Shown: positions 26,280-44,332, counted from the stretch's first letter. The stretch is DNA of 64,000 nt from an uncultured Latescibacterota bacterium (GCA_951812755.1 OX638329.1:5355563-5419562); one strand, 5' to 3'. Made by a program: numbers and translations. Notes: a model not told the origin generated them from the sequence alone.

Positions 26280-26503
26280 TTTAGGTGGATTAATAAATCA
26301 ATCGGATGGTATAGTGATTGCAATGCGTTCAACTCGAATTTCGTAGGACAAAAGCACAATTTTTGCATGATTATGCATATATGCATTTGTTTTCTCATAG
26401 ATTTTTTAATTTTTTATACATGCTAATAGCGTTTAATATTTTGGTGCGGATTATCCATCCTTTTGCACACGTATGTATTTCTATACCTGAAAAAATAACG
26501 TGT

Positions 26504-29500
26504 ATGTTTGAAAACGGAACGATTCTCGACGAAAGATATCAAATCCAGACGCACCTGGGAACCGGGGGCATGGGCGAAGTCTATCGGGTTTTAGACCTGG
26601 ACCAAAACCAGGCGTGCGCGCTCAAAATTTTGAATACCATGGTGGATCACAAGGCGGTACATCGCCGTTTTCACAGAGAATTTCAAGTGTTGAACAGATT
26701 CCATCACCCGCGCCTGGTCCGCACATACACCTGGGGCTTTGCCGAAGATCGCCCTTATTTTACGATGGAATATTTACCCGGAAAGACATTGGAAAAAGTA
26801 ATTGCCGATCATGCGCTATTAGGGCAATTCCAGGCTTCGTACTTTTTTCCCCTGATGGAACAACTTGCCGAAGGATTGGCATATATCCACGCGCAGGGTG
26901 CGGTACATCGCGATCTCAAACCATCCAATATTATGGTATTGGAAACAGAAGAGGGGATCAAGATCACGATCCTGGATATGGGACTGGCGAAACTCCGACA
27001 TCTGCATAGTGCCTCCATTACGCAGACGGGCACAGCCATTGGCACGGCAGAATATATGTCACCAGAGCAAGGTAAGGGATTATGGGTAGATCATCGATCA
27101 GATTTGTACTCATTGGGCATAATTTTATACGAGATGCTCACGGGCACACCGCCTTTTTCGGGACAAAATCCCATATCTGTTATTATGAAGCACATTCGAG
27201 AGATACCGCCCTCAATGGGCGAAATCAATATCGCTGTTCCTGATGAGATACAACAAATTGTGTTGAAGTTGCTGGCAAAGGAGCCTGTTGATCGTTTTCA
27301 GTCCGCAGACGAAGTATTGCGTGCCTTACCATCGGAGTTTGTGCTACCGGATGACGAGCAGCGCGATGTGCATAGAAAAGTTATGCGGCCGCAATTTATC
27401 GGGCGCGAATCCGAAATGAAGACATTGCGCGCAATGTTGCAGGATGTACAGGCTGGCGAACAGCGCGTGATTCTAATCTCCGGTGAATCTGGTGTGGGAA
27501 AAACGAGATTGGTTGAAGAACTATTGGGCGATGCGCTAATCCATGACTTTCTGTGTTTGAAAAGCGCAGGCCAGGAAGAGGGTGGACAAATATACGGTGC
27601 GTTGATTGATGCTTTTCAAGGAACGACGGATTTGGTTAGAAGGGAAACAGACAAGTTTTCTGTTATGGAGCGTTGGTTGCAGTTATTAAAAAGTCTGCGA
27701 CAGAAACAGCCCATCGTGTTGTGTTTAGAAAATATTCAATGGCTTGACGAATTGACCCTGGAATTTTTGCAGTATGTATTACGCGATCCAGACCCGTGTC
27801 CGTTTTTGTTATGTCTGACCTGTCAATGGTCCAACCTGGAACCGCTTTCAGAGGAAATTAAAAATTTTATACACAGTAATGAATTTGCCGAGGCGACCCG
27901 GATTCAGTTGGAGAATCTACCGCGTAAAGAGATGGGGTATTTAGCAGCGTCGATGTTGGGGGAGCGATCCATACCTCGAGATGCATTGCAAACCCTGTTC
28001 AGAGAAACGGGTGGGCAACCCCTGTTTGTCGTAGAGGCTGTGAGGACACTGGTGAATGCCGATGTGGTTCGGCAGAATGTATTTGGCGATTGGCAGTGGG
28101 GAGAATTTCCCCAAACATTATTATCCGATGATATTTCAGAGATTTTGCACAGACGCATAGCTACCCTGCCTGCTGTGCAACAGCGAGTGCTGGAATACGC
28201 CTGTGTTTTTCTCAATGATTTTTCTTTTGACTTATTGGCTGCGGTTTGGCGCGGTGATGAGTTGGAATTGTTGGATGTGCTGGACGACCTGATTGCAGAA
28301 GGGCTTTTAGCCGCCTGTGGAGAGGCTGAAGATCGATATCGTTTTTCACAGGGTCTGTATCGGCGGGCAATTTACGATCGCATGCAAAATGTGCGGCGAC
28401 GGCTGTTGCATCGAGAAATTGGCAATGCTTTGGAAAAGATGGATGATGCAGAAGAATTGACAGAAGAATTGGCGGATCATTTTGCGGCGGCGAAAGAACA
28501 AGATAAAGCTATAAAATATACGCGTCTATCAGGCAAAAAAGCATTGGAGGTACAAGCGTATCGCCAGGCATTGAGACGGTTTGAGGCTGTGCGAGGCTGG
28601 ACATCAGATGACGCTTTTGAATCACCTGCAGATACCATCGTTTTTTTATGCGATTATGCAAACGTTTTACGCTGTTGTAGTCAGCACAATAGCGCACTGG
28701 AACTTTTAGACGAGGCAAAAGCGTTATTGCCCGATAATCGGAAAGATTTAAAGGCGCGTATTTTGTGGAATGAAGGCATTATTCACAGCGTACTTCAACA
28801 TGGGAAAGTAGCAGAAGAATATATGCTGGAGGCATTGCGATTTTACCGGGAATTGGGTGATCTCGACGGAGAAATTCAGGCGTTGGGGAGTTTGGCTCAT
28901 TTATGCGATGTGTCTGAGCGTCACGAAGAAGCGATTGCATATATGTGTCGAGAAATAGAGAAATATGCTGCTCTGGGAGAAGCCCAGAACAAGGCTATTG
29001 TACAAGTCCGAGAAGGTATGGTTGCATTGGTGGAATTTCGATTTGGGACGGCCAAAGTACACCTAAAAGCGGCTGTAAAAACATCTCAGAAATTGGGACT
29101 TGAACACCATCGCATTGGAGCACTCAATTTACTTTTAAGAGTTTATTTTTATTCAGGTGATCTCGACCAAGCAGAAGCCGTTTGCCACGAAGTCATTGGT
29201 GAGTGGCAGAAGCGAGGCATTGTGTATTGGGAGGCAATGAATTTTCTCCGGTTGGGAGAATTGGCTCTGGAACGCGATGGTTTTTCAGAAGCATTGGAAT
29301 ATGCCGAGACCTCAGCAGAGCGATTTTTGGAAACACCGCGAAGAGATTACGTCTATCGCGCTTATGCGATAGCAGCAACGGCTGCTGCGAGAATGGGAGA
29401 TACAGAGACAGCTCTTGAATGGGCAGAAAGAGCCAGTGAAGGTGTGCAACAAACATCGGGTATGTACACGGGCATATTGCCCCTGGTGTATTGTGGTATA

Positions 29501-31297
29501 GGTGTTGCTTTAGACAAAGCAGGGCGAATTGCTGAGGCTGAAGAGGCTTTTGAGCAGGCTATTGAATGCCGGGGAGAATCTAAAGGCGATCACTGGGCGC
29601 GTGCGCTGCTGATGGCTGGGGAGTTTTATCTCGAGCGCGATGATATGGCAAAAGCGCAAGCCCATCTCGAAGCGGCAAAACAGGCGTTTGGAGAAATGGA
29701 AATGTCCTATTTTTTGGAGAAAACACAGATGTTATTAAATCAATTATCTCGCGACAAAGATGGTCGCGGCAGAAATGCCGCACTTAGCTCTGAGATTTCA
29801 GTCGATACGTTGTCTGTTGATCGCTGGCGCTTGCTTTACGATGTGAGCAGGGAATTGACAACAGAGCGCGATGTCAAAGTGTTATTGGATCGAACTTTGG
29901 GTAACTTGTTGGTTGTCTATCCAGCAGAGCGAGTACTTATTGCGGTGAAAAATGAGACCCCAAAAAGCTTTGTGGTTGATGCGGTACGTTACCACAATGT
30001 AGAAGCAGATGATGCGGAAGCACTGAGCCGGGGTATTATTCGTCGGGTTATTGAAACAAATGAACCCGTTTTGAGCGTTGATGCTCAGACAGACGACAGG
30101 CTAAATCAATATCAAAGCGTGATGGACTACAATATTCGGTCTGTATTGTGCGTACCCCTATTTCATGTTAGCGAAGGTGTGATGGGTGCACTGTATGTGG
30201 ATCATCGCGGCATTGACAACGCATTTTCTGAAGCAGATCAGACGTTTTTACAGGCATTTGCGAATCTGGTGGGGGTGGCACTGGTCAATGCGAGAATGTA
30301 TGAACAATTAGAAGATAAAGCGCGATATTTGCAGCAAGAGGTCGAAAGACAGTACCAGCTTGACGACCTGGTCGGGCAAAGTGATGCTATGCAGACGATC
30401 TACTATCTTATCGAACGCGCTTCACAAAGTGATATACCCGTGCTTGTGCAGGGCGAAACAGGTACAGGCAAAGAATTGGCGGCGCGTGCCATACACTACA
30501 ATAGCAGACGCAAAGACCAGCCATTTTTGTCTCAAAATTGTGCCGCACTATCACCAGAGTTGTTGCAAAGTGAGTTGTTCGGACACAAAAAAGGGGCGTT
30601 TACTGGCGCGACAGCAAATCACACGGGGATTTTTGAAGCAGCCAATGGCGGTACGGTTTTTTTAGATGAAATCGCCGATGCTTCACCACAGTTGCAAAGG
30701 AGCTTGTTGCGGGTGTTGCAAGAGGGTGAGATTCGGCGCGTGGGAGAAACAGAGGATCGCGCAGTGGATGTACGCATTATTGCAGCGACCAATCAAGACT
30801 TAAAAAAAGAAGTAGAAAACAGATCCTTCCGCGAAGATTTGTATTACCGATTGCATGTGATTCAGATCAATATGCCGCCTTTGCGAGAACGCATTGAAGA
30901 TGTGCCATTATTGGCTGAACATTTGCTCATTCGGGCAAAAGAAGATGCAAACAAGTCGGTTGGGGGACTGACAGTAGGTGCGATAAAGGTGCTTGTAAGT
31001 TACAACTGGCCTGGCAATGTGCGCGAGTTGGAGAATGAGATTCGGCGTGCAATTGCATTGGCAGAGCCAGATAGTGAAATTACGCCCGATTTGTTTTCAG
31101 AATCCATTGGGCACACAGTGTCAGATATCCCTGTCGAATCCCAGGGACGTTTACAAGACCGTGTTCAGGAGTATGAAAAACGAGTGATTCGAGACGCGCT
31201 CGAGAAATGTGTGGGCAATATTACGCATACGGCTAAAGAACTGGGAATAACGCGCGCTGGCCTGCAGAAAAAGATCAATCGTTTGGGGTTGAGATAG
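26504..31297 (+). CDS. Giant sigma-54-dependent transcriptional activator fused to a Ser/Thr protein kinase. Domain order: kinase, P-loop NTPase, TPR repeats, GAF domain, sigma-54 AAA+ activator domain, Fis-type HTH
   Basis: Kinase motifs GTGGMGEVY, HRDLKPSN, DMG and SPE. P-loop GESGVGKTRL. TPR-like helical repeats. GAF region. sigma-54 module GETGTGKELAARAIH, ESELFGHKKGAFTGA and GTVFLDEI. C-terminal HTH TAKELGITRAGLQKKI. Probable start ATG at about 26504 (MFENGTILDERYQ); the track ORF starts at 26318. Confidence 0.8.
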   Translation: MFENGTILDERYQIQTHLGTGGMGEVYRVLDLDQNQACALKILNTMVDHKAVHRRFHREFQVLNRFHHPRLVRTYTWGFAEDRPYFTMEYLPGKTLEKVIADHALLGQFQASYFFPLMEQLAEGLAYIHAQGAVHRDLKPSNIMVLETEEGIKITILDMGLAKLRHLHSASITQTGTAIGTAEYMSPEQGKGLWVDHRSDLYSLGIILYEMLTGTPPFSGQNPISVIMKHIREIPPSMGEINIAVPDEIQQIVLKLLAKEPVDRFQSADEVLRALPSEFVLPDDEQRDVHRKVMRPQFIGRESEMKTLRAMLQDVQAGEQRVILISGESGVGKTRLVEELLGDALIHDFLCLKSAGQEEGGQIYGALIDAFQGTTDLVRRETDKFSVMERWLQLLKSLRQKQPIVLCLENIQWLDELTLEFLQYVLRDPDPCPFLLCLTCQWSNLEPLSEEIKNFIHSNEFAEATRIQLENLPRKEMGYLAASMLGERSIPRDALQTLFRETGGQPLFVVEAVRTLVNADVVRQNVFGDWQWGEFPQTLLSDDISEILHRRIATLPAVQQRVLEYACVFLNDFSFDLLAAVWRGDELELLDVLDDLIAEGLLAACGEAEDRYRFSQGLYRRAIYDRMQNVRRRLLHREIGNALEKMDDAEELTEELADHFAAAKEQDKAIKYTRLSGKKALEVQAYRQALRRFEAVRGWTSDDAFESPADTIVFLCDYANVLRCCSQHNSALELLDEAKALLPDNRKDLKARILWNEGIIHSVLQHGKVAEEYMLEALRFYRELGDLDGEIQALGSLAHLCDVSERHEEAIAYMCREIEKYAALGEAQNKAIVQVREGMVALVEFRFGTAKVHLKAAVKTSQKLGLEHHRIGALNLLLRVYFYSGDLDQAEAVCHEVIGEWQKRGIVYWEAMNFLRLGELALERDGFSEALEYAETSAERFLETPRRDYVYRAYAIAATAAARMGDTETALEWAERASEGVQQTSGMYTGILPLVYCGIGVALDKAGRIAEAEEAFEQAIECRGESKGDHWARALLMAGEFYLERDDMAKAQAHLEAAKQAFGEMEMSYFLEKTQMLLNQLSRDKDGRGRNAALSSEISVDTLSVDRWRLLYDVSRELTTERDVKVLLDRTLGNLLVVYPAERVLIAVKNETPKSFVVDAVRYHNVEADDAEALSRGIIRRVIETNEPVLSVDAQTDDRLNQYQSVMDYNIRSVLCVPLFHVSEGVMGALYVDHRGIDNAFSEADQTFLQAFANLVGVALVNARMYEQLEDKARYLQQEVERQYQLDDLVGQSDAMQTIYYLIERASQSDIPVLVQGETGTGKELAARAIHYNSRRKDQPFLSQNCAALSPELLQSELFGHKKGAFTGATANHTGIFEAANGGTVFLDEIADASPQLQRSLLRVLQEGEIRRVGETEDRAVDVRIIAATNQDLKKEVENRSFREDLYYRLHVIQINMPPLRERIEDVPLLAEHLLIRAKEDANKSVGGLTVGAIKVLVSYNWPGNVRELENEIRRAIALAEPDSEITPDLFSESIGHTVSDIPVESQGRLQDRVQEYEKRVIRDALEKCVGNITHTAKELGITRAGLQKKINRLGLR

Positions 31298-31308
31298 GCG
31301 GTGAACAG

Positions 31309-31347
31309 GTGCATCCAGATGTATGCAGTGCATCCTGGCGGATGCAC
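31309..31347. promoter_or_regulatory. Upstream activator sequence: perfect 20-bp palindrome GTGCATCC-TGGC-GGATGCAC (31328-31347), overlapped by a degenerate third copy (31309-31328)
   Basis: Read directly from the sequence. About 200 bp upstream of the sigma-54 promoter. Confidence 0.7.
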
Positions 31348-31408
31348 TTTGTCTATCCTTATATAATTCAGATAGTTGTGCTTATTTTCTTTAAATAGGC
31401 GATCATAA

Positions 31409-31428
31409 GTGCATCCTATCGGATGCAC
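31409..31428. promoter_or_regulatory. Upstream activator sequence: second perfect 20-bp palindrome GTGCATCC-TATC-GGATGCAC
   Basis: Has the same half-sites as 31328-31347 and lies 81 bp downstream of it. An AT-rich tract follows, plausibly bendable or IHF-binding. Confidence 0.7.
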
Positions 31429-31537
31429 TTACACCTGAATCTCGCAGGTGTAGCACAAATAATCCTTAATTTTTATCTCTTTGTTTTTCAAGCACTTGAG
31501 AATTTTCATGTGCTTTTTTTTTGCTGAGACGATTTTG

Positions 31538-31552
31538 GGCACGGATCTTGCA
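31538..31552 (+). promoter_or_regulatory. sigma-54 (RpoN) promoter GGCACG-N4-TTGCA
   Basis: Exact match to the -24 GG / -12 GC consensus (tGGGCACGgatcTTGCAtc) with correct spacing, about 55 nt upstream of the small peptide ATG. Confidence 0.75.
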
Positions 31553-31608
31553 TCATAAAAAGGGCAAACCGTTATGGCACAGGATTTTTCCATTATAAGG
31601 AGGATAAC

Positions 31609-31788
31609 ATGGCAACACGACGCAAATTGACTTTGGTCAACGGTGCAATAGATCAAGAAGGTAGCATTCTTATGTATCAGACTGTAAAGAGTGTAGAGGT
31701 TCACTGCGAGCCTTATACTTTTGCTGTTCCCCTCCTTCCCTTCCCCGATAATGATCCCGATTGGGACGATTTTGATCAGTCTGAGTAA
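31609..31788 (+). CDS. Small peptide (59 aa), candidate RiPP precursor (MATRRKLTLVNGAIDQEGSILMYQTVKSVEVHCEPYTFAVPLLPFPDNDPDWDDFDQSE)
   Basis: Missing from the track (below 60 aa). Excellent SD AAGGAGG 6 nt upstream of the ATG. Sits between a sigma-54 promoter and a radical-SAM/SPASM gene. Basic N-terminus, single Cys, Pro-rich and acidic C-terminus. Confidence 0.7.
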   Translation: MATRRKLTLVNGAIDQEGSILMYQTVKSVEVHCEPYTFAVPLLPFPDNDPDWDDFDQSE

Positions 31789-31816
31789 ATCATCTCTATT
31801 TTAAGGAGTACTTGAC

Positions 31817-33253
31817 ATGCTATGCATTCAGAAATGCGAAATGCATCTTTTTCAAACGGAAGAACAAAAACAGCCGATTGTCTATCAGACTGAGACAGGT
31901 CTGTTTTTTACACTGGATACCCTTTTCCAGGCGATTTTAGCGTGTTGCGAGGGGCTGTCCGATTCTCAGGTTGTTCAGAGGTTGACCGATCAATACGAGG
32001 CAGAGGAAGTTGTCGAGGCTATCGAGGAATTGGCTCAGGTGGGTTTGATTTCGGATGGTGCTCTACCTGTGGTATCCAATGTGCCGACAACAGAAGGGGT
32101 GGCAGCCTGCGGCGTATCGCAGACTGATCGTTTGCAGGTGTCGTTGCACGTTTCGCATACGTGCAATATTCAGTGTGCTTATTGCTTTGCCCACGGCGGG
32201 GATTACGGCGGTAAGGCGATGCTGATGCAACCGGACGTTGCCGAGCAAGCGATACGCTGGATCATCTCCGAGGCTCAGGTGTTCGGACGGTGCCAGATCG
32301 ATTTTTTTGGCGGGGAACCGCTTCTGAATTTTCCGCTGATGCAGAAGCTGGTGCCGTTTGCCAAATCCCTGGGAGCGCGATTGGGTGTGCAGGTTGGTTT
32401 TGGCATTGTGACCAATGGCACCTTGTTGACCGACGAGATGAAGCAGTTTTTGGTTAATAAAAAGTTTCAGATTAAGGTCAGCCTGGATGGTGGACGTAAG
32501 ACACAGGACCGCATTCGCAAGTTTCACAATGGTTCTGGTACTTATGATGTTGTGGCAAAGAATGTAAAGAAATTGACTGCTGAGGCACCTGAGCGCGTGT
32601 ATTTGCAGGCTGTTATGACAGCTTATGACCTGAACGAGGATCAGATTGCCGATGAGTTGCGTTCGCTGGGTACTGAAAATGCGCTCATCGGTCCGGCGGT
32701 TGTCTCCCCCGATAAACCTTATGCTGTTCGAGAAGAACACATACCCGCTTTGAAGCAACAAATTCACAAGCGGAGCCGGCACGCGCTCAAAGCTATTCTA
32801 AATGGTGAAGAGGGTGAAGATGAAGAGTTTGATCCGAGGATTCAAAAACTTTTGACGCGCCAAAAATCTTGTCACGGATGCCTCGGCGGTAAGCAGTATT
32901 TGGCAATTGCAGCGGACGGGTCGATTTATTTTTGCTCGAGCTTAGCCGACGCGCCCGAGTTTAAGATGGGTGATGTGTTTGCGGGTATTGATCGCGAAAA
33001 GCAGCAGTATTTTGACGCGCAGTTCAATGTGAATAATCGTCCTGAGTGCAAAACGTGCTGGGCGCGCAATTTGTGTGGTGGCGGATGTCTTTGGGAGGCA
33101 CGGACAACAACGGATGATCCAATGTCTCCGAACCCGGTTTATTGTGAACAGACGCGCTATCGCTATGAACTGGCAATGGAGATGTGTATGGAGATAGCAG
33201 AAACGGATGCGTCTTTGTTGCAGCGACGATATGATCTGGAAGTGGTATCATAA
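31817..33253 (+). CDS. Radical SAM/SPASM-domain peptide-modifying enzyme with an N-terminal RRE-like extension (sactipeptide/ranthipeptide-maturase-like)
   Basis: CNIQCAYC (CxxxCxxC) radical-SAM cluster motif. C-terminal Cys-rich SPASM region (CHGC…FCSS…CKTCWARNLCGGGC). A roughly 110-aa N-terminal domain resembling the RiPP recognition elements of sactisynthases. SD aaggag upstream. Confidence 0.8.
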   Translation: MLCIQKCEMHLFQTEEQKQPIVYQTETGLFFTLDTLFQAILACCEGLSDSQVVQRLTDQYEAEEVVEAIEELAQVGLISDGALPVVSNVPTTEGVAACGVSQTDRLQVSLHVSHTCNIQCAYCFAHGGDYGGKAMLMQPDVAEQAIRWIISEAQVFGRCQIDFFGGEPLLNFPLMQKLVPFAKSLGARLGVQVGFGIVTNGTLLTDEMKQFLVNKKFQIKVSLDGGRKTQDRIRKFHNGSGTYDVVAKNVKKLTAEAPERVYLQAVMTAYDLNEDQIADELRSLGTENALIGPAVVSPDKPYAVREEHIPALKQQIHKRSRHALKAILNGEEGEDEEFDPRIQKLLTRQKSCHGCLGGKQYLAIAADGSIYFCSSLADAPEFKMGDVFAGIDREKQQYFDAQFNVNNRPECKTCWARNLCGGGCLWEARTTTDDPMSPNPVYCEQTRYRYELAMEMCMEIAETDASLLQRRYDLEVVS

Positions 33254-34349: not shown

Positions 34350-34376
34350 TGCCTCGCGGTGTACTAAAAAACGTCA

Positions 34377-37300
34377 ATGGAAAAACTCATTGACGTTTTT
34401 ACTTGCAGGACGTTTCTTGAGCTTATCATGCAATACATCGCCGACATACACCTGCACTCGCGTTTTGCCCGCGCAACCAGCAAAACCTTGAACCCCGAAA
34501 ACCTGTATCGGTGGAGCCTCATCAAAGGTCTAACCGTGGTAGGCACCGGAGATTTCACCCATCCCGTATGGTATGAAGAACTGCGCGACCAGCTCGAACC
34601 AGCCGAAGAAGGACTATACCAATTGCGACCAGACCTCAGGCGAGGTATCGACGCCGAATTGCCACCAGCCTGCCGCGGACAAATGCGATTTGTACTCTCC
34701 GTCGAAATCAGCCTCATCTACAAAAAAAACGACAAAACCAGAAAAATACATCACGTCGTCACAATGCCAAATTTTGACGCCGTAGCGCGTTTGAACGCGC
34801 GACTCGGTGCAATAGGCAATCTGAAATCGGACGGACGCCCCATCCTCGGCCTGGACAGCCGGGACCTGGTAGAAATTTGTCTGGAAGCGTGTGACGAGGT
34901 ACTCTTTATACCCGCGCACATCTGGACCCCTCATTTTGCGGTCCTGGGTGCAAGTTCCGGGTTCGACACCCTCGAAGAATGTTTTGAAGACATGCTGCCC
35001 CACATCTTCGCCGTAGAAACCGGCCTGTCTTCCGACCCACCGATGAACTGGCGCCTATCCATGCTGGACAACTACGCAATCGTCTCCAATTCAGACGCAC
35101 ATTCCCCGCAAAAGCTCGCCCGCGAAGCCACCTGCTTCAATACCGAATTATCCTTCCGCGGAATGTATAACGCATTAAAAGACCGCGACCCAACGCGCTT
35201 TACGGGCACTCTGGAATTTTATCCCGAAGAAGGCAAATATCACTTCGACGGACACAGAAAATGCGATATATGCTGGAAACCCGCACAAACCCTCGACGCA
35301 GACGAAATCTGCCCGGTATGTAACCGCAAATTGACCGTTGGCGTACTCCACCGCGTTGAAAAACTCGCTGACCGCGCAGAAGGCGACCGCCCCGATGTCG
35401 CGATGCCCTTTGAAAATCTGATCCCACTGCCAGAAATCATCGGCTCAGTCCTCCAGGTGGGACCCACCAGCAAACGCGTACAAACCGTGTACGAACAAAT
35501 GCTCGCAACACACGGAGCAGAACTAAAAATCTTGCGCCAACTGCCCATCGCAGAAATAGCCAAAACCGGAGACCCCCTCATCGCCGAAGGCATTCGACGC
35601 ATGCGCGAAGGCACAGTTCACATCGATCCGGGATACGATGGCGTGTACGGAAAAATTCAAGTCTTCTCCGACGAAGACCGCGCACTCCTGAGCGGACAGG
35701 AATCGCTATTTCACATACCAGCCGCAGAGCCTTTCAGGGACAAAGCTGAGACCGCGCGTCCAAATAAAAGTACAAAAGCCGCGGCGGACGCCCCTTTCAC
35801 ACTTCACACTTCTCACTTCTCACTTCTCACTTCACACCAGCAAGCAGCCGTAACAATGGAAAAAGGTCCCGTAATCGTAACAGCGGGACCCGGCACCGGA
35901 AAAACCCGAGTACTCACCCATCGCGTAATCGACCTGATCCAGAACCGCGGCGTATCACCCGCTTCTGTAATGGCCGTAACATTCACCAACCGCGCCGCAA
36001 CTGAAATGTGGGAACGCATCGTATCACTATCCTCCGGAGGCGAAGAACTGGTCCCCATGCGCGTAGGCACATTCCACCGCCTATCATTAGACCTCTTGCG
36101 AGAATATGCCCCCGAACGCCTGGGCGCAATTGCCGACCGAGGAGAAGCCCGCGCCGTCTTACAGGAAGTAATCGCCGACATCGACACCGAAATATCGGTT
36201 GATGACGCGCTCTCCCAGATCTCACTATGCAAAGCCCATGGACATGAAATATCCGACATCACCGACACCGAACTTCAAACCATTTACACAAATTATCAAC
36301 AACGCCTCACCGCTTATGGCCTGATGGACTTTGACGACATCTTGCTCATACTCCACGATGTACTCTGCGGCGATATTCTACAGACAGTGCAAGCGCGTTT
36401 CTCCCATGTACTCGTCGATGAATTTCAAGATGTCAACGCCATACAATACGCACTGATTCAAAAATTGGCCGGGGATGGATCGGGCCTCTTCGTCATAGGC
36501 GATCCCGATCAAGCCATCTACGGTTTTCGAGGCGCGAGCGCGGAATATTTTGAACAGTTAAAAACGAACTTTCCCAAAACAAACGAAGTCATCTTACAGC
36601 ACACATTTCGCTCCACCCCTCAGATTATCTCCGCAGCATCCAGTCTGCTTCGCGGACGATCGTACGATCCCGTGCGAGAAAACGGCCCGAACCTGAGAGC
36701 CTTATCCACACCCGGCGAAACTGGCGAAGGCATCGCCATAGTAGAAGAAATCTCTCGGATGGTCGGCGGCGCAGACCTATTGCAAGCCAACGAAGAAGGC
36801 AAACGCAGCCTGGACGACTTCGCCATCTTGTTCCGCACCGGACGCCAGGCAGACGCCCTGGAAACGTGCTTCTTACAGGCCGGGATCCCCTATCGCGTCG
36901 TCGGCCAGAAAAATTATCTGGATGCGGCTTCGGTACAGCACGCCCTATCGTTTTTTAAGTGTGTCCTGAGAGATGACATTTCCAGCGTCCCAATCACCAG
37001 AGACATGATCGACCTCCTCTCCATCCCCGCATTTGACCCCGGCCGGGAAGCGCGCGCATCAATACGCCAACAAATTCAAGACAACGCACTATCAGACACT
37101 GTACAGGAAAAATTGGACGCCGCGATGGAAGCTGTGAATCGCTTCCGCAATGAAACATCCCACTTATCACCCGCTGAACTCATCGCGAAGTGGGCAGACG
37201 AATTTGCGACATCAAACGATATCGACCTCGAGCGATTGGGCCTATTGGCTCAGAGCGTGGATTCCATCGCAGAGCTATTGGAAATCATCACCCTCGGACA

Positions 37301-37655
37301 GGATGGCGACTTTGTGCGTCGTGGAAAAATTGCGCGTCCCGAAGCCGTCACGCTCATGACCTTGCATGCGTCTAAGGGCCTGGAATTCCCCGTGGTATTT
37401 ATCTGTGGGGTTGAGGAAGGATTGATACCGCATGCCGAAGCGGATATCGAAGAAGAGAAACGCCTGTTTTTTGTCGGTATAACCCGCGGACAAGACGAAG
37501 TGATCTTAACCCGCGCCCGAAGCCGCAGGCGATTTGGCGAACGCATTGCGCCCGAGATATCGCGCTTTGTCACCGACATACCCGAAGACATCATCGACTT
37601 TGTCGATCTGCGAACCCAAAGACGCAAACCCGCCGAACAATTATCCCTGTTTTAA
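34377..37655 (+). CDS. Fusion protein: N-terminal Endonuclease-Q-like PHP-domain nuclease with zinc finger, low-complexity linker, C-terminal UvrD/PcrA-type superfamily-1 DNA helicase
   Basis: N-terminus YIADIHLHSRFARATS…GTGDFTHP (PHP/TIGR00375/EndoQ-like) and a CDICW…CPVCNRKL zinc ribbon. Linker PFTLHTSHFSLLTSHQ encoded by a (cacttct)n microsatellite at about 35795-35830. Helicase motifs TAGPGTGKTRVL (I), VDEFQDVN (III) and HASKGLEFPVVF (VI). Confidence 0.75.
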   Translation: MEKLIDVFTCRTFLELIMQYIADIHLHSRFARATSKTLNPENLYRWSLIKGLTVVGTGDFTHPVWYEELRDQLEPAEEGLYQLRPDLRRGIDAELPPACRGQMRFVLSVEISLIYKKNDKTRKIHHVVTMPNFDAVARLNARLGAIGNLKSDGRPILGLDSRDLVEICLEACDEVLFIPAHIWTPHFAVLGASSGFDTLEECFEDMLPHIFAVETGLSSDPPMNWRLSMLDNYAIVSNSDAHSPQKLAREATCFNTELSFRGMYNALKDRDPTRFTGTLEFYPEEGKYHFDGHRKCDICWKPAQTLDADEICPVCNRKLTVGVLHRVEKLADRAEGDRPDVAMPFENLIPLPEIIGSVLQVGPTSKRVQTVYEQMLATHGAELKILRQLPIAEIAKTGDPLIAEGIRRMREGTVHIDPGYDGVYGKIQVFSDEDRALLSGQESLFHIPAAEPFRDKAETARPNKSTKAAADAPFTLHTSHFSLLTSHQQAAVTMEKGPVIVTAGPGTGKTRVLTHRVIDLIQNRGVSPASVMAVTFTNRAATEMWERIVSLSSGGEELVPMRVGTFHRLSLDLLREYAPERLGAIADRGEARAVLQEVIADIDTEISVDDALSQISLCKAHGHEISDITDTELQTIYTNYQQRLTAYGLMDFDDILLILHDVLCGDILQTVQARFSHVLVDEFQDVNAIQYALIQKLAGDGSGLFVIGDPDQAIYGFRGASAEYFEQLKTNFPKTNEVILQHTFRSTPQIISAASSLLRGRSYDPVRENGPNLRALSTPGETGEGIAIVEEISRMVGGADLLQANEEGKRSLDDFAILFRTGRQADALETCFLQAGIPYRVVGQKNYLDAASVQHALSFFKCVLRDDISSVPITRDMIDLLSIPAFDPGREARASIRQQIQDNALSDTVQEKLDAAMEAVNRFRNETSHLSPAELIAKWADEFATSNDIDLERLGLLAQSVDSIAELLEIITLGQDGDFVRRGKIARPEAVTLMTLHASKGLEFPVVFICGVEEGLIPHAEADIEEEKRLFFVGITRGQDEVILTRARSRRRFGERIAPEISRFVTDIPEDIIDFVDLRTQRRKPAEQLSLF

Positions 37656-38954
37656 AATACCGAGCATCTCGTGTACAGCGTTGTGAATGCGGTCTTCTGT
37701 ATCTTCAACAAAGGGACCCGTGCGCTTCCAGTGTTGCTGGTTGAGCCAGACCTCGTAGCCCCCTTCTGAAATCTGCCGTTTGACGGGAATATAACCGATA
37801 ATATCATTCGTATAAGCCGCCACTAGAAGATTGTCAAAATAAGGCGCCAGTTCTCTTTTCAAACGCAACCCGTGCTCTACATTCATTTCCGCGGCAAGCC
37901 CGACTATTGCCAGCGCATCGCCAAAACGCACCGTCTGGATCTCAAATGGGAAGCTGGTCACAACGGGAATATTGTTTTCAACGCTATCGAACAAGTGTCG
38001 CGCCCATGCCCGTACATACTCCGGACCATCGTCCAGGCTGGAAGTGACCAGATCCATATCAATGGGTTCGGTCTCTATATTCAGCACCGTCTGATCAACA
38101 GAAATCGGACCGCTTATGGGCTGTAGTTGCGAAGCGAGTACCCGGGTAACGGACTCCCCCAATTCGACGCCAATATCCCGGATCTCATCAACCTCCCGCT
38201 GAACAAAAACATTTGACGTCGGATCGACGGGCTTCGTCTTCTGATCTCCGGCACAGCCCTGCAAAAAACAAGTCGCGACATCGGGATACACCGCTTCGAT
38301 ATGGTCGCACGCAAAACACACGTAGTCTCCCCCAATAAGGGTCCCGCTGCGGCTGGTGGGGTGACAGGCATAAGAAAAAATAACACATCGCAACTCGCCT
38401 TCGGGAGATTCGACCGCAATAACCGGAACATCGTGGTCGTGAGGCGCTTCCAAAGAGGGTACCCACGCCACACCGCCCTTTCCATCTGGCTTACGACGGG
38501 ACCTCGCAATACCGCAACTCCCCGTACCAAAACCAAGGCGTGCGGGAGACCGATCTTCCCAGGCTATTTTTGCACAGCGCGCGACATTTTCAAAAAGATC
38601 TTCGAGATAATCATCGTCCAGTTCCCCGTGCCGCTCCCTGTCCATCTCCCGGATACAGGGACCGCAGTGCGTATGCGAACCATTGAGAATAATATGTGCC
38701 GGATCAATACCCGTAGCCGCGTTAATTCTGCTTCTCACCTCTTCGGTGCGTTCGTAAAAACCCAGAATCTCGGCACCGACAATAATCAGCGGTGTCTGAC
38801 CGTCGTCTATCGCAACCGCCGTAGCCTTCAAAGGATGATAAACTTCGGTAGAAGGCTCTTGCCGCGCCGCGAATCCAGCGAGATAAATCCCCACGGGCGG
38901 GGTAATATCGACAGTGCTAACGCCGACTTGATAGGTATTATTGGACGATGACAT
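37641..38954 (-). CDS. Neutral/alkaline ceramidase-like hydrolase
   Basis: 437 aa. Its N-terminal segment (…VGVSTVDITPPVGIYLAGF…) resembles the neutral ceramidase N-terminal domain. Moderate confidence. Confidence 0.5.
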   Translation of the reverse strand: MSSSNNTYQVGVSTVDITPPVGIYLAGFAARQEPSTEVYHPLKATAVAIDDGQTPLIIVGAEILGFYERTEEVRSRINAATGIDPAHIILNGSHTHCGPCIREMDRERHGELDDDYLEDLFENVARCAKIAWEDRSPARLGFGTGSCGIARSRRKPDGKGGVAWVPSLEAPHDHDVPVIAVESPEGELRCVIFSYACHPTSRSGTLIGGDYVCFACDHIEAVYPDVATCFLQGCAGDQKTKPVDPTSNVFVQREVDEIRDIGVELGESVTRVLASQLQPISGPISVDQTVLNIETEPIDMDLVTSSLDDGPEYVRAWARHLFDSVENNIPVVTSFPFEIQTVRFGDALAIVGLAAEMNVEHGLRLKRELAPYFDNLLVAAYTNDIIGYIPVKRQISEGGYEVWLNQQHWKRTGPFVEDTEDRIHNAVHEMLGILKQG

Positions 38955-43222: not shown

Positions 43223-44332
43223 TCATCCATAAGTCCACCCGCAGTGAAATCCTTGCTGCTCTGCAATCGACATGAGAGGCTCCAGGGTTCTGCGATAGGC
43301 AAATCTCAATATTTCAAAATCCAGAGTGTGCTCGGGCTTTTCAATATGCAGATCTGTAATATAAGGCTCCACCTTCTTTTTCCATTCATTATTGCTAAAA
43401 ATATCTCGGGCGATAGACAGCGCGTTGCACTGGGTTTTAGCCAAGCAGTCAATATATTTTTCCGACGGGAGCCAGTCACGTTTAGAACTATTTGCCTGGG
43501 GATCAACGGGAATGAGATTCCACAACTGATTGTGCGCCACAAATTTCCAGGGCAAAAAGTGATCCAATGCATAATCGCTATTCAGATCTTTTCCCGTGTA
43601 AATACATTGGATATTTTTTTTGCTAATAACCTGTTTCCAAAACTTTCGCTGTACATCAGGATTCCCTCTCTGCGGGTCTGGAGGAAACAATTTTTGCGTC
43701 ACAGCAGGAATACTGGGATTGCGTCGCTGCATATAATCTGCCCAGTGCCACAGTGCCCAGCCCTCAATAATTGTCTGGTGTTGTTGCAAATAAGCAATCC
43801 AGTCTGGATGCAAAAAAATACACTTTCGGGCATCGTCAAAACGGTAAAGAGGGCGTCGTTTTCGAAAATGTTCAGCAGCAAGTTCGACAATTTTCTGATC
43901 TACTCCTTGCTCCGATCCGCTGGTCTCTGCGTCAAAAAACGGGCGCAAAATTCGCTTGGAGACATAACGCATCAATCCGTAATCCGACTTTTCGCGAGAA
44001 ACATCAACGTGTTTACGCAATTTTTTGAGTCCAGTTTTAGATAGAAAATTTTTATCATGGTCAAAATTTGGAATCCGTTCCCAAACGGAAGCAATTTTAT
44101 CCTGAATGCCAAATGACAGTTTGGAAAAGACATTTGGGTACCATGCAGTAACCAGCATCTCAATCTCTATATCTCTCAGCGAAATACCATCATCAATCTC
44201 GAAATCTCTGTCCTTTAGCAAAGTCAATAGAGAAAGAAAAAAGAGATACTTGTACGAAGTGGCCTTATTTCTAAACAATCTACTCAGTGCTGCAATATCA
44301 AGTTGATCTGAATGTGGTAATTGTTGAGTCAT
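43223..44332 (-). CDS. Uncharacterised protein with a C-terminal HNH-nuclease-like motif (possible defence-associated nuclease)
   Basis: 369 aa with a C-terminal …ALDHFLPWKF…HNQLWNLIPVDPQANSSKRD (H-N-N-type) motif. The N-terminal domain has no family I can name. Confidence 0.45.
   Translation of the reverse strand: MTQQLPHSDQLDIAALSRLFRNKATSYKYLFFLSLLTLLKDRDFEIDDGISLRDIEIEMLVTAWYPNVFSKLSFGIQDKIASVWERIPNFDHDKNFLSKTGLKKLRKHVDVSREKSDYGLMRYVSKRILRPFFDAETSGSEQGVDQKIVELAAEHFRKRRPLYRFDDARKCIFLHPDWIAYLQQHQTIIEGWALWHWADYMQRRNPSIPAVTQKLFPPDPQRGNPDVQRKFWKQVISKKNIQCIYTGKDLNSDYALDHFLPWKFVAHNQLWNLIPVDPQANSSKRDWLPSEKYIDCLAKTQCNALSIARDIFSNNEWKKKVEPYITDLHIEKPEHTLDFEILRFAYRRTLEPLMSIAEQQGFHCGWTYG

What the first reader, a model, noticed from the sequence alone, without database searches (positions are those of the whole stretch)
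34377..37655. Endonuclease-Q-like PHP nuclease fused to a UvrD-type helicase through a microsatellite-encoded linker
The N-terminal roughly 420 aa carries the PHP-domain start I-A-D-x-H-L-H-S-R-F-A-R-A-T-S, a GTGDFTHP motif and a CxxC…CxxC zinc ribbon, as in EndoQ/TIGR00375 proteins that cleave at deaminated or abasic bases. The C-terminal 600 aa or so is a complete superfamily-1A helicase (motifs I, III and VI are recognisable). The two parts are joined by a low-complexity HTSHFSLLTSH segment encoded by (cacttct)n repeats at about 35795-35830. Coupling a lesion-specific endonuclease to a UvrD-like motor in one chain would give a self-contained excision/unwinding enzyme. I do not know of a characterised example.
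Basis: partly seen in the sequence, partly recalled or inferred. Interest (0 to 1): 0.65.

Follow-up and report, generated by a model that had tools for sequence, protein, structure and literature searches.

The report
Endonuclease Q fused to UvrD-type helicase
This is a real single gene joining a damaged-base-nicking enzyme (Endonuclease Q) to a UvrD-type DNA-unwinding motor, but it belongs to a large family found across many bacterial phyla and already listed in the literature, and no biochemical study of the long form was found.

Summary
One uninterrupted ORF encodes an N-terminal Endonuclease Q module and a complete SF1A UvrD/PcrA-like helicase. They are joined by a roughly 45-residue, low-confidence linker whose last 14 codons are a 7-nt tandem repeat (35796-35837). 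The true start is probably ATG 34428 (1075 aa), not 34377.

All EndoQ metal ligands and lesion-pocket residues, and all helicase motifs, are invariant across orthologues.

The fusion is not rare. 64 of the 80 best species-level genome hits carry it, across about ten phyla, and 122 of the top 150 50%-identity cluster representatives are full-length fusions. Shiraishi et al. 2016 (Suppl. Fig. S1) already list long (945-1244 aa) bacterial EndoQ homologues with C-terminal beta-clamp motifs.

- A second, internal QxxLF clamp-type motif sits at the module junction.
- Some phyla carry split endoQ + uvrD-like gene pairs, each product ending in QxxLF.
- The zinc site is HxxC…CxxC rather than C4.
- The linker is hypervariable but always in frame.

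Likely mechanism (inferred): a clamp-tethered enzyme nicks 5' of dU/dI/AP sites, then unwinds from the nick.

The window comes from a Candidatus Latescibacterota MAG. Interest is modest: a new member of a known, apparently biochemically uncharacterised kind.

The parts
34367..34400 (+). Perfect 13-bp hairpin (AAAAACGTCAATG / CATTGACGTTTTT) between the upstream sigma-54 activator gene and the EndoQ-helicase gene.
   Evidence: Sequence. RNA fold -22.5 kcal/mol, z = -2.9, with 0 of 200 shuffles folding as well.
34428..37655 (+). EndoQ-UvrD-like helicase gene, with the probable true coding region (1075 aa plus stop).
   Evidence: The database protein P0001 is 100% identical and 1075 aa, starting MQYIADIHLHS. 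The ORF is listed.
34428..35672 (+). Endonuclease Q module (aa 1-415): PHP catalytic domain, zinc-binding domain and C-terminal helical domain.
   Evidence: phmmer to PfuEndoQ 5zb8 at 1.2e-43, query 5-415 against chain 5-385. TIGR00375 at 6.7e-48. Precomputed Pfam PF27218 MJ0043_C.
34443..34457 (+). DIHLH: PHP metal ligands H8 and H10, equivalent to PfuEndoQ H8 and H10.
   Evidence: Alignment. Invariant in 37 orthologues and in 122 of 122 fused representatives.
34911..34931 (+). PAHIWTP: H164, equivalent to the PfuEndoQ H139 metal ligand and lesion-pocket residue.
   Evidence: The role of the residue is taken from PMC5961232 and PMC8307549.
35016..35036 (+). ETGLSSD: G199-L200-S201, equivalent to PfuEndoQ G169-L170-S171, the pocket that excludes T and A.
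   Evidence: Alignment. Invariant and present in 122 of 122 representatives. The role is described in PMC8307549.
35085..35105 (+). SNSDAHS: D223 and H225, equivalent to PfuEndoQ D193 and H195.
35253..35321 (+). Zinc-binding segment HRKCDIC…CPVC. The conserved ligands are H276, C279, C295 and C298; C282 is not conserved.
   Evidence: The ungapped alignment to PfuEndoQ CSRC…CPKC places H276 opposite the first Pfu cysteine. Invariance is shown. HxxC is in 120 of 122 representatives, and HxxCxxC in only 32 of 122. P0076 has R at position 282.
35697..35711 (+). Internal QESLF (aa 424-428): a QxxLF beta-clamp-binding-type motif at the end of the EndoQ module.
   Evidence: Q424, L427 and F428 are invariant in 37 orthologues. 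Stand-alone bacterial EndoQs end in GQxxLF at the same position. The QxxLF/QL[SD]LF consensus is given in PMC12309361.
35691..35828 (+). Inter-module linker (aa about 422-467), probably disordered and hypervariable in length and sequence.
   Evidence: AF2 pLDDT is below 50 for residues 422-465. The segment from the end of the EndoQ module to Walker A varies from 67 to 91 aa among orthologues about 90% identical, and is always in frame.
35796..35837 (+). Heptanucleotide tandem repeat (TTCACAC/TTCTCAC x6) encoding FTLHTSHFSLLTSH. It spans the linker-helicase boundary.
   Evidence: TRF period 7, 6.0 copies, 94% matches. Relatives carry 6-10 degenerate units.
35823..37652 (+). SF1A UvrD/PcrA/Rep-like helicase module (aa 466-1075). 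Motifs present: Q-motif Q471; motif I AGPGTGKT 35883-35906; Ia TFTNRAA 35979-35999; II DEFQD 36417-36431; III GDPDQAIYGFRGA 36498-36536; IV TFRST 36603-36617; V TLHASKGLE 37359-37385; VI VGITR 37473-37487.
   Evidence: Pfam PF00580 at 3e-64 and PF13361 at 1e-35. PDB UvrD 2is1 at 1.6e-78, aligned over residues 10-654. Motif residues are invariant; coordinates are.
37638..37652 (+). C-terminal QLSLF, an exact match to the bacterial beta-clamp-binding consensus QL[S/D]LF.
   Evidence: More than 110 of 120 orthologues end in a QLSLF-type motif such as QLSLF or QMSLF. 111 of 122 fused representatives carry a Qxx[LMIF][FLMWI] motif in their last 14 residues. The tail has pLDDT below 50. The consensus is given in PMC12309361, and the same motif is tabulated for long bacterial EndoQ homologues in PMC4858679 Suppl. 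Fig. S1.

Best explanation
The gene encodes a long-form bacterial Endonuclease Q. It has a lesion-specific PHP/zinc nuclease module covalently linked, through a flexible linker, to a UvrD/PcrA-type 3'-5' SF1A helicase. It carries two sliding-clamp-binding-type motifs: an internal QESLF at the end of the nuclease module and QLSLF at the C-terminus.

Shown here:
- Domain identities.
- Intact catalytic, lesion-pocket and helicase motifs under purifying selection.
- The fusion is genuine and phylogenetically widespread.
- In some phyla the same two modules are adjacent separate genes, each product ending in QxxLF.

Inferred:
1. The enzyme is recruited to DNA-loaded beta clamp.
2. The EndoQ module flips out dU, dI, dX or an AP site and nicks the phosphodiester bond immediately 5' of it. 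This leaves a 3'-OH and a lesion-bearing 5'-phosphate end, as archaeal and Bacillus EndoQs do.
3. The tethered helicase loads at that nick, translocates 3'-5' on the intact strand and peels off the lesion-bearing strand as a 5' flap.
4. A 5' nuclease (Pol I 5'-nuclease, FEN or RecJ), a polymerase and a ligase finish the repair.

This would physically realise the helicase step that was drawn in the archaeal EndoQ pathway model.
For: Identity:
- EndoQ match at E about 1e-43 over the full PfuEndoQ chain.
- UvrD/PcrA match at E about 1e-78, plus Pfam and NCBIfam hits.

Active sites. In 37 orthologues of 54-93% identity these are invariant:
- D6/H8/H10, E93, H108, H164, G199-L-S201 and D223/H225.
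- The zinc ligands H276/C279/C295/C298.
- Helicase motifs Q, I, Ia, II, III, IV, V and VI.
The nuclease motifs are also present in 120-122 of 122 fused 50%-cluster representatives, except the SNSDAH-type motif, which is in 112 of 122.

Real fusion:
- At least 120 90%-identity clusters are full length.
- 64 of 80 species-level loci in about ten phyla are fused.
- The linker is always in frame despite extreme variability.

Functional linkage independent of fusion. Six stand-alone endoQ genes are followed, at distances from an overlap to about 0.9 kb, by a separate uvrD-like gene. Each product ends in, or within a few residues of, a QxxLF-type motif. In L043 a single in-frame stop separates the two.

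Clamp link:
- A C-terminal QLSLF-type motif is nearly universal.
- The internal QxxLF is invariant in this clade and present in 69 of 122 representatives.
- Both motifs lie in low-pLDDT segments.
- Archaeal EndoQ binds PCNA through a C-terminal PIP box and is stimulated by it. Beta-clamp motifs were noted in bacterial homologues (PMC4858679).

Chemistry and pathway: the 5' nick giving a 3'-OH and 5'-P, and a proposed helicase removal step, are described in PMC4357722.
Against: - No biochemistry exists for this protein or, as far as I could find, for any long-form member.
- The TIGR00375 score (164 bits) is below NCBIfam's cut-off (326.6) and covers only profile positions 67-374.
- The helicase scores far below the PcrA/UvrD/Rep equivalog cut-offs (361 vs 911 bits), so it is a distinct subfamily of unknown polarity and processivity.
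- The AF2 model is only moderate (pLDDT 72, and low in part of the PHP domain), and it gave no information on how the modules dock.
- There are no conserved repair-gene neighbours across phyla.
- The internal QxxLF is absent from 53 of 122 fused representatives.
- The direction of unwinding relative to the nick is inferred from UvrD polarity only.
Confidence: 0.6

Rival explanations
1. The helicase does not excise the lesion strand. It works as a translocase: it either scans DNA to deliver the EndoQ module to lesions, or strips the tightly bound EndoQ module (or other proteins) from the nicked product so that the polymerase can take over. This would resemble UvrD releasing UvrC and the oligonucleotide in nucleotide excision repair.
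For: UvrD-family motors often act as protein-displacement or turnover factors; papers surfaced report that mycobacterial UvrD1 needs ATP hydrolysis but not unwinding for NER. EndoQ sharply bends DNA and makes extensive contacts with it (PMC8307549, PMC11354406). The flexible linker of about 45 residues is compatible with either role.
Against: All helicase motifs are invariant and the region corresponding to the 2B domain is retained. This fits a full helicase at least as well. Nothing here separates translocation from unwinding.
Confidence: 0.2
2. It is an anti-phage or anti-foreign-DNA nuclease-helicase. It would attack DNA containing uracil or other non-canonical bases, nicking it and then unwinding or degrading it, rather than acting as a housekeeping repair enzyme.
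For: A role of bacterial EndoQ in antiviral defence has been suggested (PMC8307549, citing Shiraishi 2017). Nuclease plus UvrD-like helicase is a common defence architecture. The helicase module hits GajB-type PADLOC profiles at up to 4.7e-76.
Against: - The PADLOC hits are generic UvrD similarity, weaker than the hits to PcrA/UvrD (255 vs 361 bits), and none covers the nuclease module.
- The gene sits in conserved, non-defence synteny in relatives: a sigma-54 activator upstream and a ceramidase-like gene downstream.
- No defence or mobile genes are adjacent, and no neighbours are conserved across phyla.
- Clamp-binding motifs are typical of replication and repair proteins.
Confidence: 0.1
3. 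The heptanucleotide repeat is a contingency locus. Slippage by one or two units would switch expression between the full fusion and an EndoQ-only protein that retains the internal clamp motif.
For: The 7-nt unit is not a multiple of three. Simulated changes of 1 or 2 units give stops at aa 472-527, leaving an intact EndoQ module plus QESLF. Changes of 3 units stay in frame. Natural stand-alone EndoQs end at exactly this motif. Relatives carry 6-10 degenerate units, and one (P0029/L081) has an in-frame 7-aa expansion.
Against: - There are only six copies, of two unit types.
- All roughly 55 close orthologues from independent assemblies are in frame.
- The repeat is degenerate in the nearest species representative (L030).
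- More distant clades with the same fusion lack the repeat altogether.
- No read-level data are available.
Confidence: 0.04
4. The fusion is an assembly or frameshift artefact, and two genes have been merged.
For: A repeat sits at the junction, and genuine two-gene arrangements exist in other phyla.
Against: The same continuous reading frame is seen in at least 120 protein clusters and 64 species-level genomes, including isolate genomes (Neomoorella stamsii DSM 26217, Yeguia hominis NSJ-40). Linker lengths differ, yet the frame is always preserved.
Confidence: 0.02

Closest known systems
Archaeal Endonuclease Q (PfuEndoQ PF1551, TkoEndoQ TK0887; PDB 5zb8, 7k30-7k33)
   Same: The three-part nuclease module (PHP, zinc domain, C-terminal helical domain) aligns end to end at E about 1e-43. 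All metal ligands and the H139/G169/S171 lesion-pocket residues are conserved. A clamp-interaction motif sits at the end of the module: a PIP box in archaea, QESLF here.
   Different: - The archaeal enzymes are about 400-425 aa and have no helicase.
- They bind PCNA rather than the beta clamp.
- The first zinc ligand is Cys in Pfu but His here.
- This protein has two insertions, of about 12 and 6 residues, in the PHP domain.
Long bacterial EndoQ homologues tabulated by Shiraishi et al. 2016 (Sci Rep, Suppl. Fig. S1), for example Geobacter metallireducens WP_004512662, Rhodothermus marinus WP_014066013, Caldilinea aerophila WP_014432234 and Desulfovibrio vulgaris WP_012612878
   Same: Same size class (945-1244 aa) and the same C-terminal QLxLF beta-clamp motif. 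The loci I examined from the same lineages (Caldilineaceae, Desulfobacterales, Rhodothermaceae, Spirochaetia) are EndoQ-helicase fusions. This protein is a Latescibacterota member of that group.
   Different: I did not align those specific accessions here. The cited text I could read does not mention the helicase domain. The statement that EndoQs fall into three families 'based on domain organisation' comes from PMC5961232 citing Shiraishi 2017, which I could not read.
Short bacterial EndoQ (Bacillus pumilus/B. subtilis, characterised; and stand-alone forms of about 423-428 aa in Nitrospirota, Omnitrophota, Elusimicrobia and Planctomycetes)
   Same: Homologous nuclease module, 52-57% identical for the stand-alone forms found here. 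They end in GQxxLF, exactly where the fusion has its internal GQESLF. Bacillus EndoQ has EndoQ-type activity (PMC5961232).
   Different: There is no covalently attached helicase. In 6 of 12 stand-alone loci a separate uvrD-like gene follows downstream, at distances from an overlap to about 0.9 kb.
UvrD / PcrA / Rep (SF1A helicases; PDB 2is1, 1pjr, 1uaa)
   Same: All SF1A motifs are present and the protein aligns over UvrD residues 10-654. UvrD is the paradigm for unwinding that starts at a repair nick, in mismatch repair and nucleotide excision repair (established knowledge).
   Different: - It scores far below the equivalog cut-offs (361 vs 911, 332 vs 1144, 329 vs 951 bits).
- It lacks the C-terminal Tudor/RNA-polymerase-interaction domain; the chain ends within about 10 residues of the end of the aligned helicase core.
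- It ends instead in a clamp motif.
- It carries an N-terminal nuclease.
AddA / RecB (UvrD-like motor fused to a nuclease)
   Same: A single chain combining an SF1A motor and a nuclease. There are weak NCBIfam hits through the motor domain.
   Different: The nuclease is a C-terminal PD-(D/E)XK domain acting on DNA ends during recombination. It is not an N-terminal PHP lesion-specific nicking enzyme, and the domain order and substrate differ.

Membership tests
Endonuclease Q (EndoQ / TIGR00375 / MJ0043 family) | PHP-type catalytic domain with metal ligands equivalent to PfuEndoQ H8, H10, E76, H84, H139, D193 and H195 | tested here: met
   The alignment to 5zb8 places H8, H10, E93, H108, H164, D223 and H225 opposite them. 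All are invariant in 37 orthologues. The residue list is from PMC5961232.
Endonuclease Q (EndoQ / TIGR00375 / MJ0043 family) | Lesion pocket residues (Pfu H139, G169, S171) that admit U/Hx and exclude T/A | tested here: met
   PAHIWTP and ETGLSSD align with them. PAH and ExG[LM]S are present in 122 of 122 fused representatives. The role is described in PMC8307549.
Endonuclease Q (EndoQ / TIGR00375 / MJ0043 family) | C4 zinc-binding domain (CxxC…CxxC in PfuEndoQ) | tested here: inconclusive
   The segment is present and aligns without gaps, but the first Pfu cysteine aligns with His276. The conserved set is HxxC…CxxC (120 of 122 and 121 of 122 representatives). The extra Cys282 is conserved in only 32 of 122. 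A C3H site is plausible, but metal binding was not tested.
Endonuclease Q (EndoQ / TIGR00375 / MJ0043 family) | C-terminal helical domain following the zinc domain | tested here: met
   The alignment continues to Pfu residue 385 of 400. Precomputed Pfam hit PF27218 MJ0043_C. The AF2 model shows helices at 334-394 with pLDDT about 80-90.
Endonuclease Q (EndoQ / TIGR00375 / MJ0043 family) | Score above the curated TIGR00375 cut-off | tested here: not met
   164.0 bits against a cut-off of 326.6, matching profile positions 67-374 only. This reflects divergence of the bacterial long form from the seed, not absence of the domain.
Endonuclease Q (EndoQ / TIGR00375 / MJ0043 family) | Sliding-clamp interaction motif at the C-terminal end of the nuclease module | tested here: met
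   QESLF at aa 424-428, with Q, L and F invariant. It is positionally equivalent to the terminal QxxLF of short bacterial EndoQs and to the archaeal PIP box. Binding itself was not tested.
Endonuclease Q (EndoQ / TIGR00375 / MJ0043 family) | Endonucleolytic cleavage immediately 5' of dU, dI, dX and AP sites | not testable with these tools
   Requires enzyme assays.
SF1A UvrD/PcrA/Rep-like helicases | Conserved motifs Q, I, Ia, II, III, IV, V and VI | tested here: met
   Q471, AGPGTGKT, TFTNRAA, DEFQD, GDPDQAIYGFRGA, TFRST, TLHASKGLE and VGITR are all present, and the core residues are invariant.
SF1A UvrD/PcrA/Rep-like helicases | Four-subdomain architecture (1A/1B/2A/2B) | tested here: met
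   phmmer aligns to UvrD 10-474 and 552-654. Pfam hits UvrD-helicase and UvrD_C. The AF2 helicase region mostly has pLDDT 80-94. The region corresponding to 2B (about 850-960) is the most divergent.
Orthologue of UvrD, PcrA or Rep proper | Score above the NCBIfam equivalog cut-offs, and a C-terminal Tudor/RNA-polymerase-binding extension | tested here: not met
   361 vs 911 bits (PcrA), 332 vs 1144 (UvrD) and 329 vs 951 (Rep). The chain ends at QLSLF, within about 10 residues of the end of the aligned helicase core, so there is no room for a Tudor domain.
Beta-clamp (DnaN) client proteins | Accessible QL[S/D]LF / QxxLF motif, usually terminal or in a disordered segment | tested here: met
   The terminal QLSLF is an exact consensus match. 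Both motifs lie in segments with pLDDT below 50. Conservation is shown. Physical binding is not testable here.
Known anti-phage defence systems (PADLOC) | Specific profile match plus the partner genes of a system | tested here: not met
   Only generic UvrD-like (GajB, RTasHel) hits to the helicase half. There is no GajA-like or other partner nearby.

The most novel reading that the evidence does not exclude
Long-form EndoQ is a single-chain, doubly clamp-tethered 'nick-and-peel' enzyme. Its two QxxLF motifs would occupy the two pockets of one beta-clamp dimer, or hand over between them. The nuclease would nick 5' of a deaminated or abasic residue, and the attached helicase would immediately displace the damaged strand. 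This would define a glycosylase-independent excision pathway used by a large fraction of anaerobic and environmental bacterial phyla. The split-gene forms would be the ancestral two-protein version of the same machine.
Probability: 0.4. Interest if true: 0.55.

Novelty: new member of a known kind. Interest (0 to 1): 0.3.

Why it matters
EndoQ-initiated repair has been worked out almost entirely in hyperthermophilic archaea and Bacillus, and the literature treats it as patchily distributed in bacteria. The comparative data here show the opposite. Its commonest bacterial form is welded to a UvrD-type motor and ends in a beta-clamp motif.

If the nick-then-unwind mechanism is right, many bacteria own a compact, clamp-coupled alternative to UDG/AP-endonuclease base excision repair. 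That bears on how mutation spectra are interpreted in these phyla, and it could yield a useful reagent: a mesophilic, lesion-directed nickase-helicase.

For this window specifically, the gene is an ordinary, well-conserved member of that family.

Tried and rejected
1. Looked for an explicit published description or biochemistry of the EndoQ-helicase fusion using seven full-text searches. None was found. The two most relevant papers are not held: Shiraishi 2017 BBB and Shi 2021 PNAS, PMC7958190. My recollection that 'family 3' is the helicase-fused class is therefore unverified.

2. Looked for conserved operon partners across 64 fused loci by all-against-all BLAST of the two neighbours on each side. 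Only lineage-local synteny appeared, such as an RdgC-like gene in five Desulfobacterales loci. There is no family-wide partner.

3. Looked for paralogous endoQ or uvrD-like genes elsewhere in the 64-kb window. None was found.

4. PADLOC scan for defence-system membership gave only generic UvrD-like hits.

5. AlphaFold2 on a 37-sequence alignment gave pLDDT 72 and pTM 0.55. The helicase is well modelled and part of the PHP domain poorly. The tool reports no inter-domain confidence, so I drew no conclusion on docking and did not run fold searches.

6. Rejected the 34377 start codon.

7. Rejected the 'C4 zinc ribbon' reading in favour of HxxC…CxxC.

8. Considered phase variation at the 7-nt repeat. 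It is not excluded, but it is unsupported.

Full report

Yes. The window carries one uninterrupted ORF at 34377..37655 on the + strand, 1092 codons. The quoted N-terminal motifs are all in the translation: IADIHLHSRFARATS, VGTGDFTHP and CDIC…CPVC.

Tandem Repeats Finder reports a period-7 array of six copies at 35796-35837, with units TTCACAC and TTCTCAC. It encodes FTLHTSHFSLLTSH. The repeat is unique in the window apart from one 2-mismatch chance hit.

- ATG 34377 lies in the 5' arm of a perfect 13-bp hairpin, AAAAACGTCAATG/CATTGACGTTTTT, at 34367-34400. It folds at -22.5 kcal/mol with z = -2.9. The hairpin follows the stop of the upstream sigma-54 activator gene.
- The 100%-identical database protein and most other orthologues in the set start at MQYIADIHLHS, which is ATG 34428 and gives 1075 aa.
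- With that start, the catalytic DxHxH sits at residues 6-10, as in PfuEndoQ.

Residue numbers below use the 1075-aa form.

**2. What the two halves are**

*N-terminal half.*
- Residues 5-415 align with the full PfuEndoQ chain (PDB 5zb8 and 7k30-7k33) at E = 1e-43.
- TIGR00375 is hit at 6.7e-48, although this is below its curated cut-off (164 vs 326.6 bits).
- The precomputed Pfam hit on all orthologues is PF27218, MJ0043_C.

The residues shown structurally to bind the catalytic zinc ions in PfuEndoQ are H8, H10, E76, H84, H139, D193 and H195 (PMC5961232). They align with H8, H10, E93, H108, H164, D223 and H225. The pocket residues that exclude T and A are H139, G169 and S171 (PMC8307549). They align with H164, G199 and S201.

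All of these residues are invariant in 37 orthologues of 54-93% identity. The corresponding motifs are present in 120-122 of 122 fused representatives of 50%-identity clusters, except the SNSDAH-type motif, which is in 112 of 122.

One correction concerns the zinc site. Between the KYH and CPxC anchors the alignment to PfuEndoQ has no gap. It puts His276 opposite the first Pfu cysteine and Cys279 opposite the second. H276, C279, C295 and C298 are invariant, whereas C282 is not. P0076 has R at position 282, and HxxCxxC occurs in only 32 of 122 representatives.

*C-terminal half.*
- Residues 466-1069 match UvrD (2is1, 1.6e-78), PcrA, UvrD1 and Rep.
- They also match Pfam UvrD-helicase at 3e-64 and UvrD_C at 1e-35.
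- Motifs Q, I, Ia, II, III, IV, V and VI are all present, and their core residues are invariant.

The module is not an orthologue of PcrA, UvrD or Rep. It scores 329-361 bits against equivalog cut-offs of 911-1144. The chain ends within about 10 residues of the end of the aligned helicase core, so the Tudor/RNA-polymerase-binding tail of UvrD/PcrA is absent.

**3. The junction**

An AlphaFold2 model built on the 37-sequence alignment (pLDDT 72) gives pLDDT below 50 for residues 422-465 and 1064-1075. This is consistent with a flexible linker and a flexible tail.

Among orthologues that are about 90% identical overall, the segment from the end of the EndoQ module to Walker A ranges from 67 to 91 residues, with largely unrelated sequence. 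It is in frame in every case.

The heptanucleotide array covers only the last 14 linker codons and runs into the helicase Q-motif region. LTSHQQAAV aligns with UvrD LNDKQREAV. Relatives show the same array in more or less degenerate form: about 6-7 units in L030, 7 in L083 and 10 in L081. L081 encodes P0029, which carries an in-frame 7-residue expansion. More distant clades have the fusion without any such repeat.

The microsatellite is therefore a lineage-specific feature of a hypervariable linker, not what created the fusion. Simulated gain or loss of 1 or 2 units truncates the protein at aa 472-527, leaving an EndoQ-only product. Changes of 3 units stay in frame. This makes phase variation conceivable, but nothing supports it.

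**4. How common is the architecture?**

- A search of 5.8 billion proteins returned, in its top 120, full-length relatives of 1054-1131 aa that cover 95-100% of the query down to 52% identity, plus three shorter truncated relatives. Where named, they are called 'UvrD-helicase domain-containing protein [Gemmatimonadota bacterium]' or 'TIGR00375 family'.
- An exhaustive HMMER search of 1.84 billion 50%-identity representatives with the EndoQ module alone found 3898 hits at E up to 1e-3 and 1089 at E up to 1e-30. Of the best 150, 122 are full-length fusions with Walker A and DExQD motifs.
- Of the best 80 species-level loci, 64 are fusions and 12 are stand-alone genes of about 423-428 aa.

The fused loci come from Latescibacterota, Gemmatimonadota, Chloroflexota, Bacillota, Desulfobacterota, Spirochaetia, KSB1 and Rhodothermaceae. 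The Bacillota include the isolates Neomoorella stamsii DSM 26217, Yeguia hominis NSJ-40 and Bacilliculturomica massiliensis. The stand-alone genes among the 80 come mainly from Nitrospirota, Omnitrophota, Elusimicrobia and Planctomycetes.

The nearest genome is a Candidatus Latescibacterota MAG chromosome (OZ242311.1), 96% identical in the EndoQ module. The window therefore comes from that lineage.

**5. Evidence for a functional link beyond the fusion**

In six of the twelve stand-alone loci a separate uvrD-like gene of 483-661 aa (one copy truncated by the contig end) follows on the same strand. The distance ranges from an overlap to about 0.9 kb, and in L043 a single in-frame stop codon separates the two. 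This split-versus-fused pattern argues that the two activities work together whether or not they are joined.

No other neighbour is conserved across phyla. The window's own neighbours are unrelated to DNA repair:
- a 1659-aa kinase/sigma-54 activator;
- a radical-SAM protein;
- a sigma-54 activator;
- a ceramidase-like protein;
- a DAO oxidoreductase.

Close relatives keep the same local synteny.

**6. Clamp motifs**

The protein ends in QLSLF, an exact match to the bacterial clamp-binding consensus QL[S/D]LF (PMC12309361).
- More than 110 of 120 orthologues end in a QLSLF-type motif such as QLSLF or QMSLF.
- 111 of 122 fused representatives carry a Qxx[LMIF][FLMWI] motif in their last 14 residues.

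A second QxxLF, QESLF at 424-428, sits at the end of the nuclease module.
- Its Q, L and F are invariant in this clade.
- It occurs in 69 of 122 representatives.
- It coincides with the C-terminal GQxxLF of the stand-alone bacterial EndoQs.
- The separate helicases of the split loci also end in, or within a few residues of, a QxxLF-type motif.

The parallel in archaea is experimentally established. TkoEndoQ binds PCNA through its C-terminal PIP box with a KD of 55 nM, and ring-shaped PCNA stimulates it (PMC4858679).

**7. Mechanism**

*Shown.*
- Both modules are intact and conserved.
- The fusion is real.
- The two modules are genetically linked even when unfused.
- Clamp-type motifs are conserved in flexible segments.

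*Established for homologues.*
- EndoQ nicks immediately 5' of dU, dI, dX and AP sites, leaving a ligatable 3'-OH and 5'-P (PMC4357722).
- One of the proposed archaeal pathways invokes a helicase to remove the damaged segment.
- UvrD-type motors translocate 3'-5' and can start at repair nicks (general knowledge of mismatch repair and nucleotide excision repair).

*Inferred.* The beta clamp recruits the protein. The EndoQ module nicks 5' of the lesion. The tethered helicase engages the intact strand at the nick and moves 3'-5', which is towards the lesion. This displaces the lesion-bearing 5'-P strand for removal by a 5' nuclease and for gap filling from the 3'-OH.

I put about 0.95 on the identity and reality of the fusion, and about 0.6 on this mechanism.

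*Rivals.*
- A translocase or turnover role for the motor (0.2).
- Anti-phage restriction of uracil-containing DNA (0.1). PADLOC gives only generic UvrD hits and the genomic context is not defence-like.
- Phase variation at the repeat (0.04).
- An artefact (0.02).

**8. Comparison with what is known, and novelty**

I also found no biochemistry on the long form.

The proteins themselves are not new.
- Shiraishi et al. 2016 tabulated bacterial EndoQ homologues in two size classes, 405-464 aa and 945-1244 aa. The table gives their C-terminal beta-clamp motifs and includes Geobacter metallireducens, Rhodothermus marinus, Caldilinea aerophila, Zymomonas mobilis and Desulfovibrio vulgaris (PMC4858679 Suppl. 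Fig. S1).
- A later paper states that EndoQs were divided into three families 'based on the domain organization', two of them bacterial (PMC5961232). The source paper is not held.
- Public annotation pipelines already label these proteins with both domains.

I therefore rate this as a new member of a known kind.

- the internal second clamp-type motif;
- the split endoQ/uvrD-like gene pairs;
- the HxxC…CxxC zinc site;
- the hypervariable, repeat-bearing linker in the Latescibacterota clade.

**9. Verdict**

The fusion is an ordinary, well-conserved member of a large family with no biochemical characterisation that I could find. Interest is 0.3.

Noticed in passing
window 34367-34400: Perfect 13-bp inverted repeat with a 6-nt loop, flanked by an A-run and a T-run, between the sigma-54 activator stop (34349) and the EndoQ-helicase start.
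   Followed up: partly
window 26318-31297 (+): A 1659-aa ORF combining a Ser/Thr protein kinase, an AAA_16 ATPase, TPR repeats, a GAF domain, a sigma-54 interaction domain and a Fis-type HTH. This is an unusually long kinase / enhancer-binding-protein fusion.
   Followed up: no
window 31817-33253 (+), with the 31298-31816 gap upstream: A radical-SAM protein with cysteine-rich C-terminal motifs (SPASM-like by eye) lies between two sigma-54 activators. The 520-nt upstream gap was not examined for a small precursor peptide.
   Followed up: no
window 43223-44332 (-): A 369-aa ORF whose only Pfam hit is an HNH_4 endonuclease domain at residues 243-289.
   Followed up: no
window 37641-37655: The EndoQ-helicase gene and the convergent ceramidase-like gene (37641-38954, minus strand) overlap by 15 nt at their 3' ends. 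The same tail-to-tail overlap, of a few nucleotides, is seen in close relatives (L081-L083).
   Followed up: partly
L043 5583-8816; L079 6001-8879; L056 6001-8858; L080 3112-5863; L036 6001-10183; L063 1278-4349: Split versions of the system: an endoQ gene of about 425 aa followed by a separate uvrD-like gene (483-661 aa; the L063 copy is truncated by the contig end). Both products end in, or within a few residues of, a QxxLF-type clamp motif. In L043 the two are separated by a single in-frame stop.
   Followed up: partly
L039, L048, L050, L057, L065 (immediately upstream, divergent strand): Five Desulfobacterales loci share a divergently oriented upstream gene of about 200-250 aa that looks like RdgC (a recombination-associated protein) by eye, plus a second conserved small gene. 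This is lineage-local synteny only.
   Followed up: no
L008, L012, L020, L028, L039, L045: These long EndoQ-helicase ORFs lack the terminal QLxLF motif. L020 additionally lacks recognisable Walker A and DExQD motifs by regular expression, although it shows 44% tblastn identity to the helicase module. It may be a degenerate or frame-disrupted copy.
   Followed up: no
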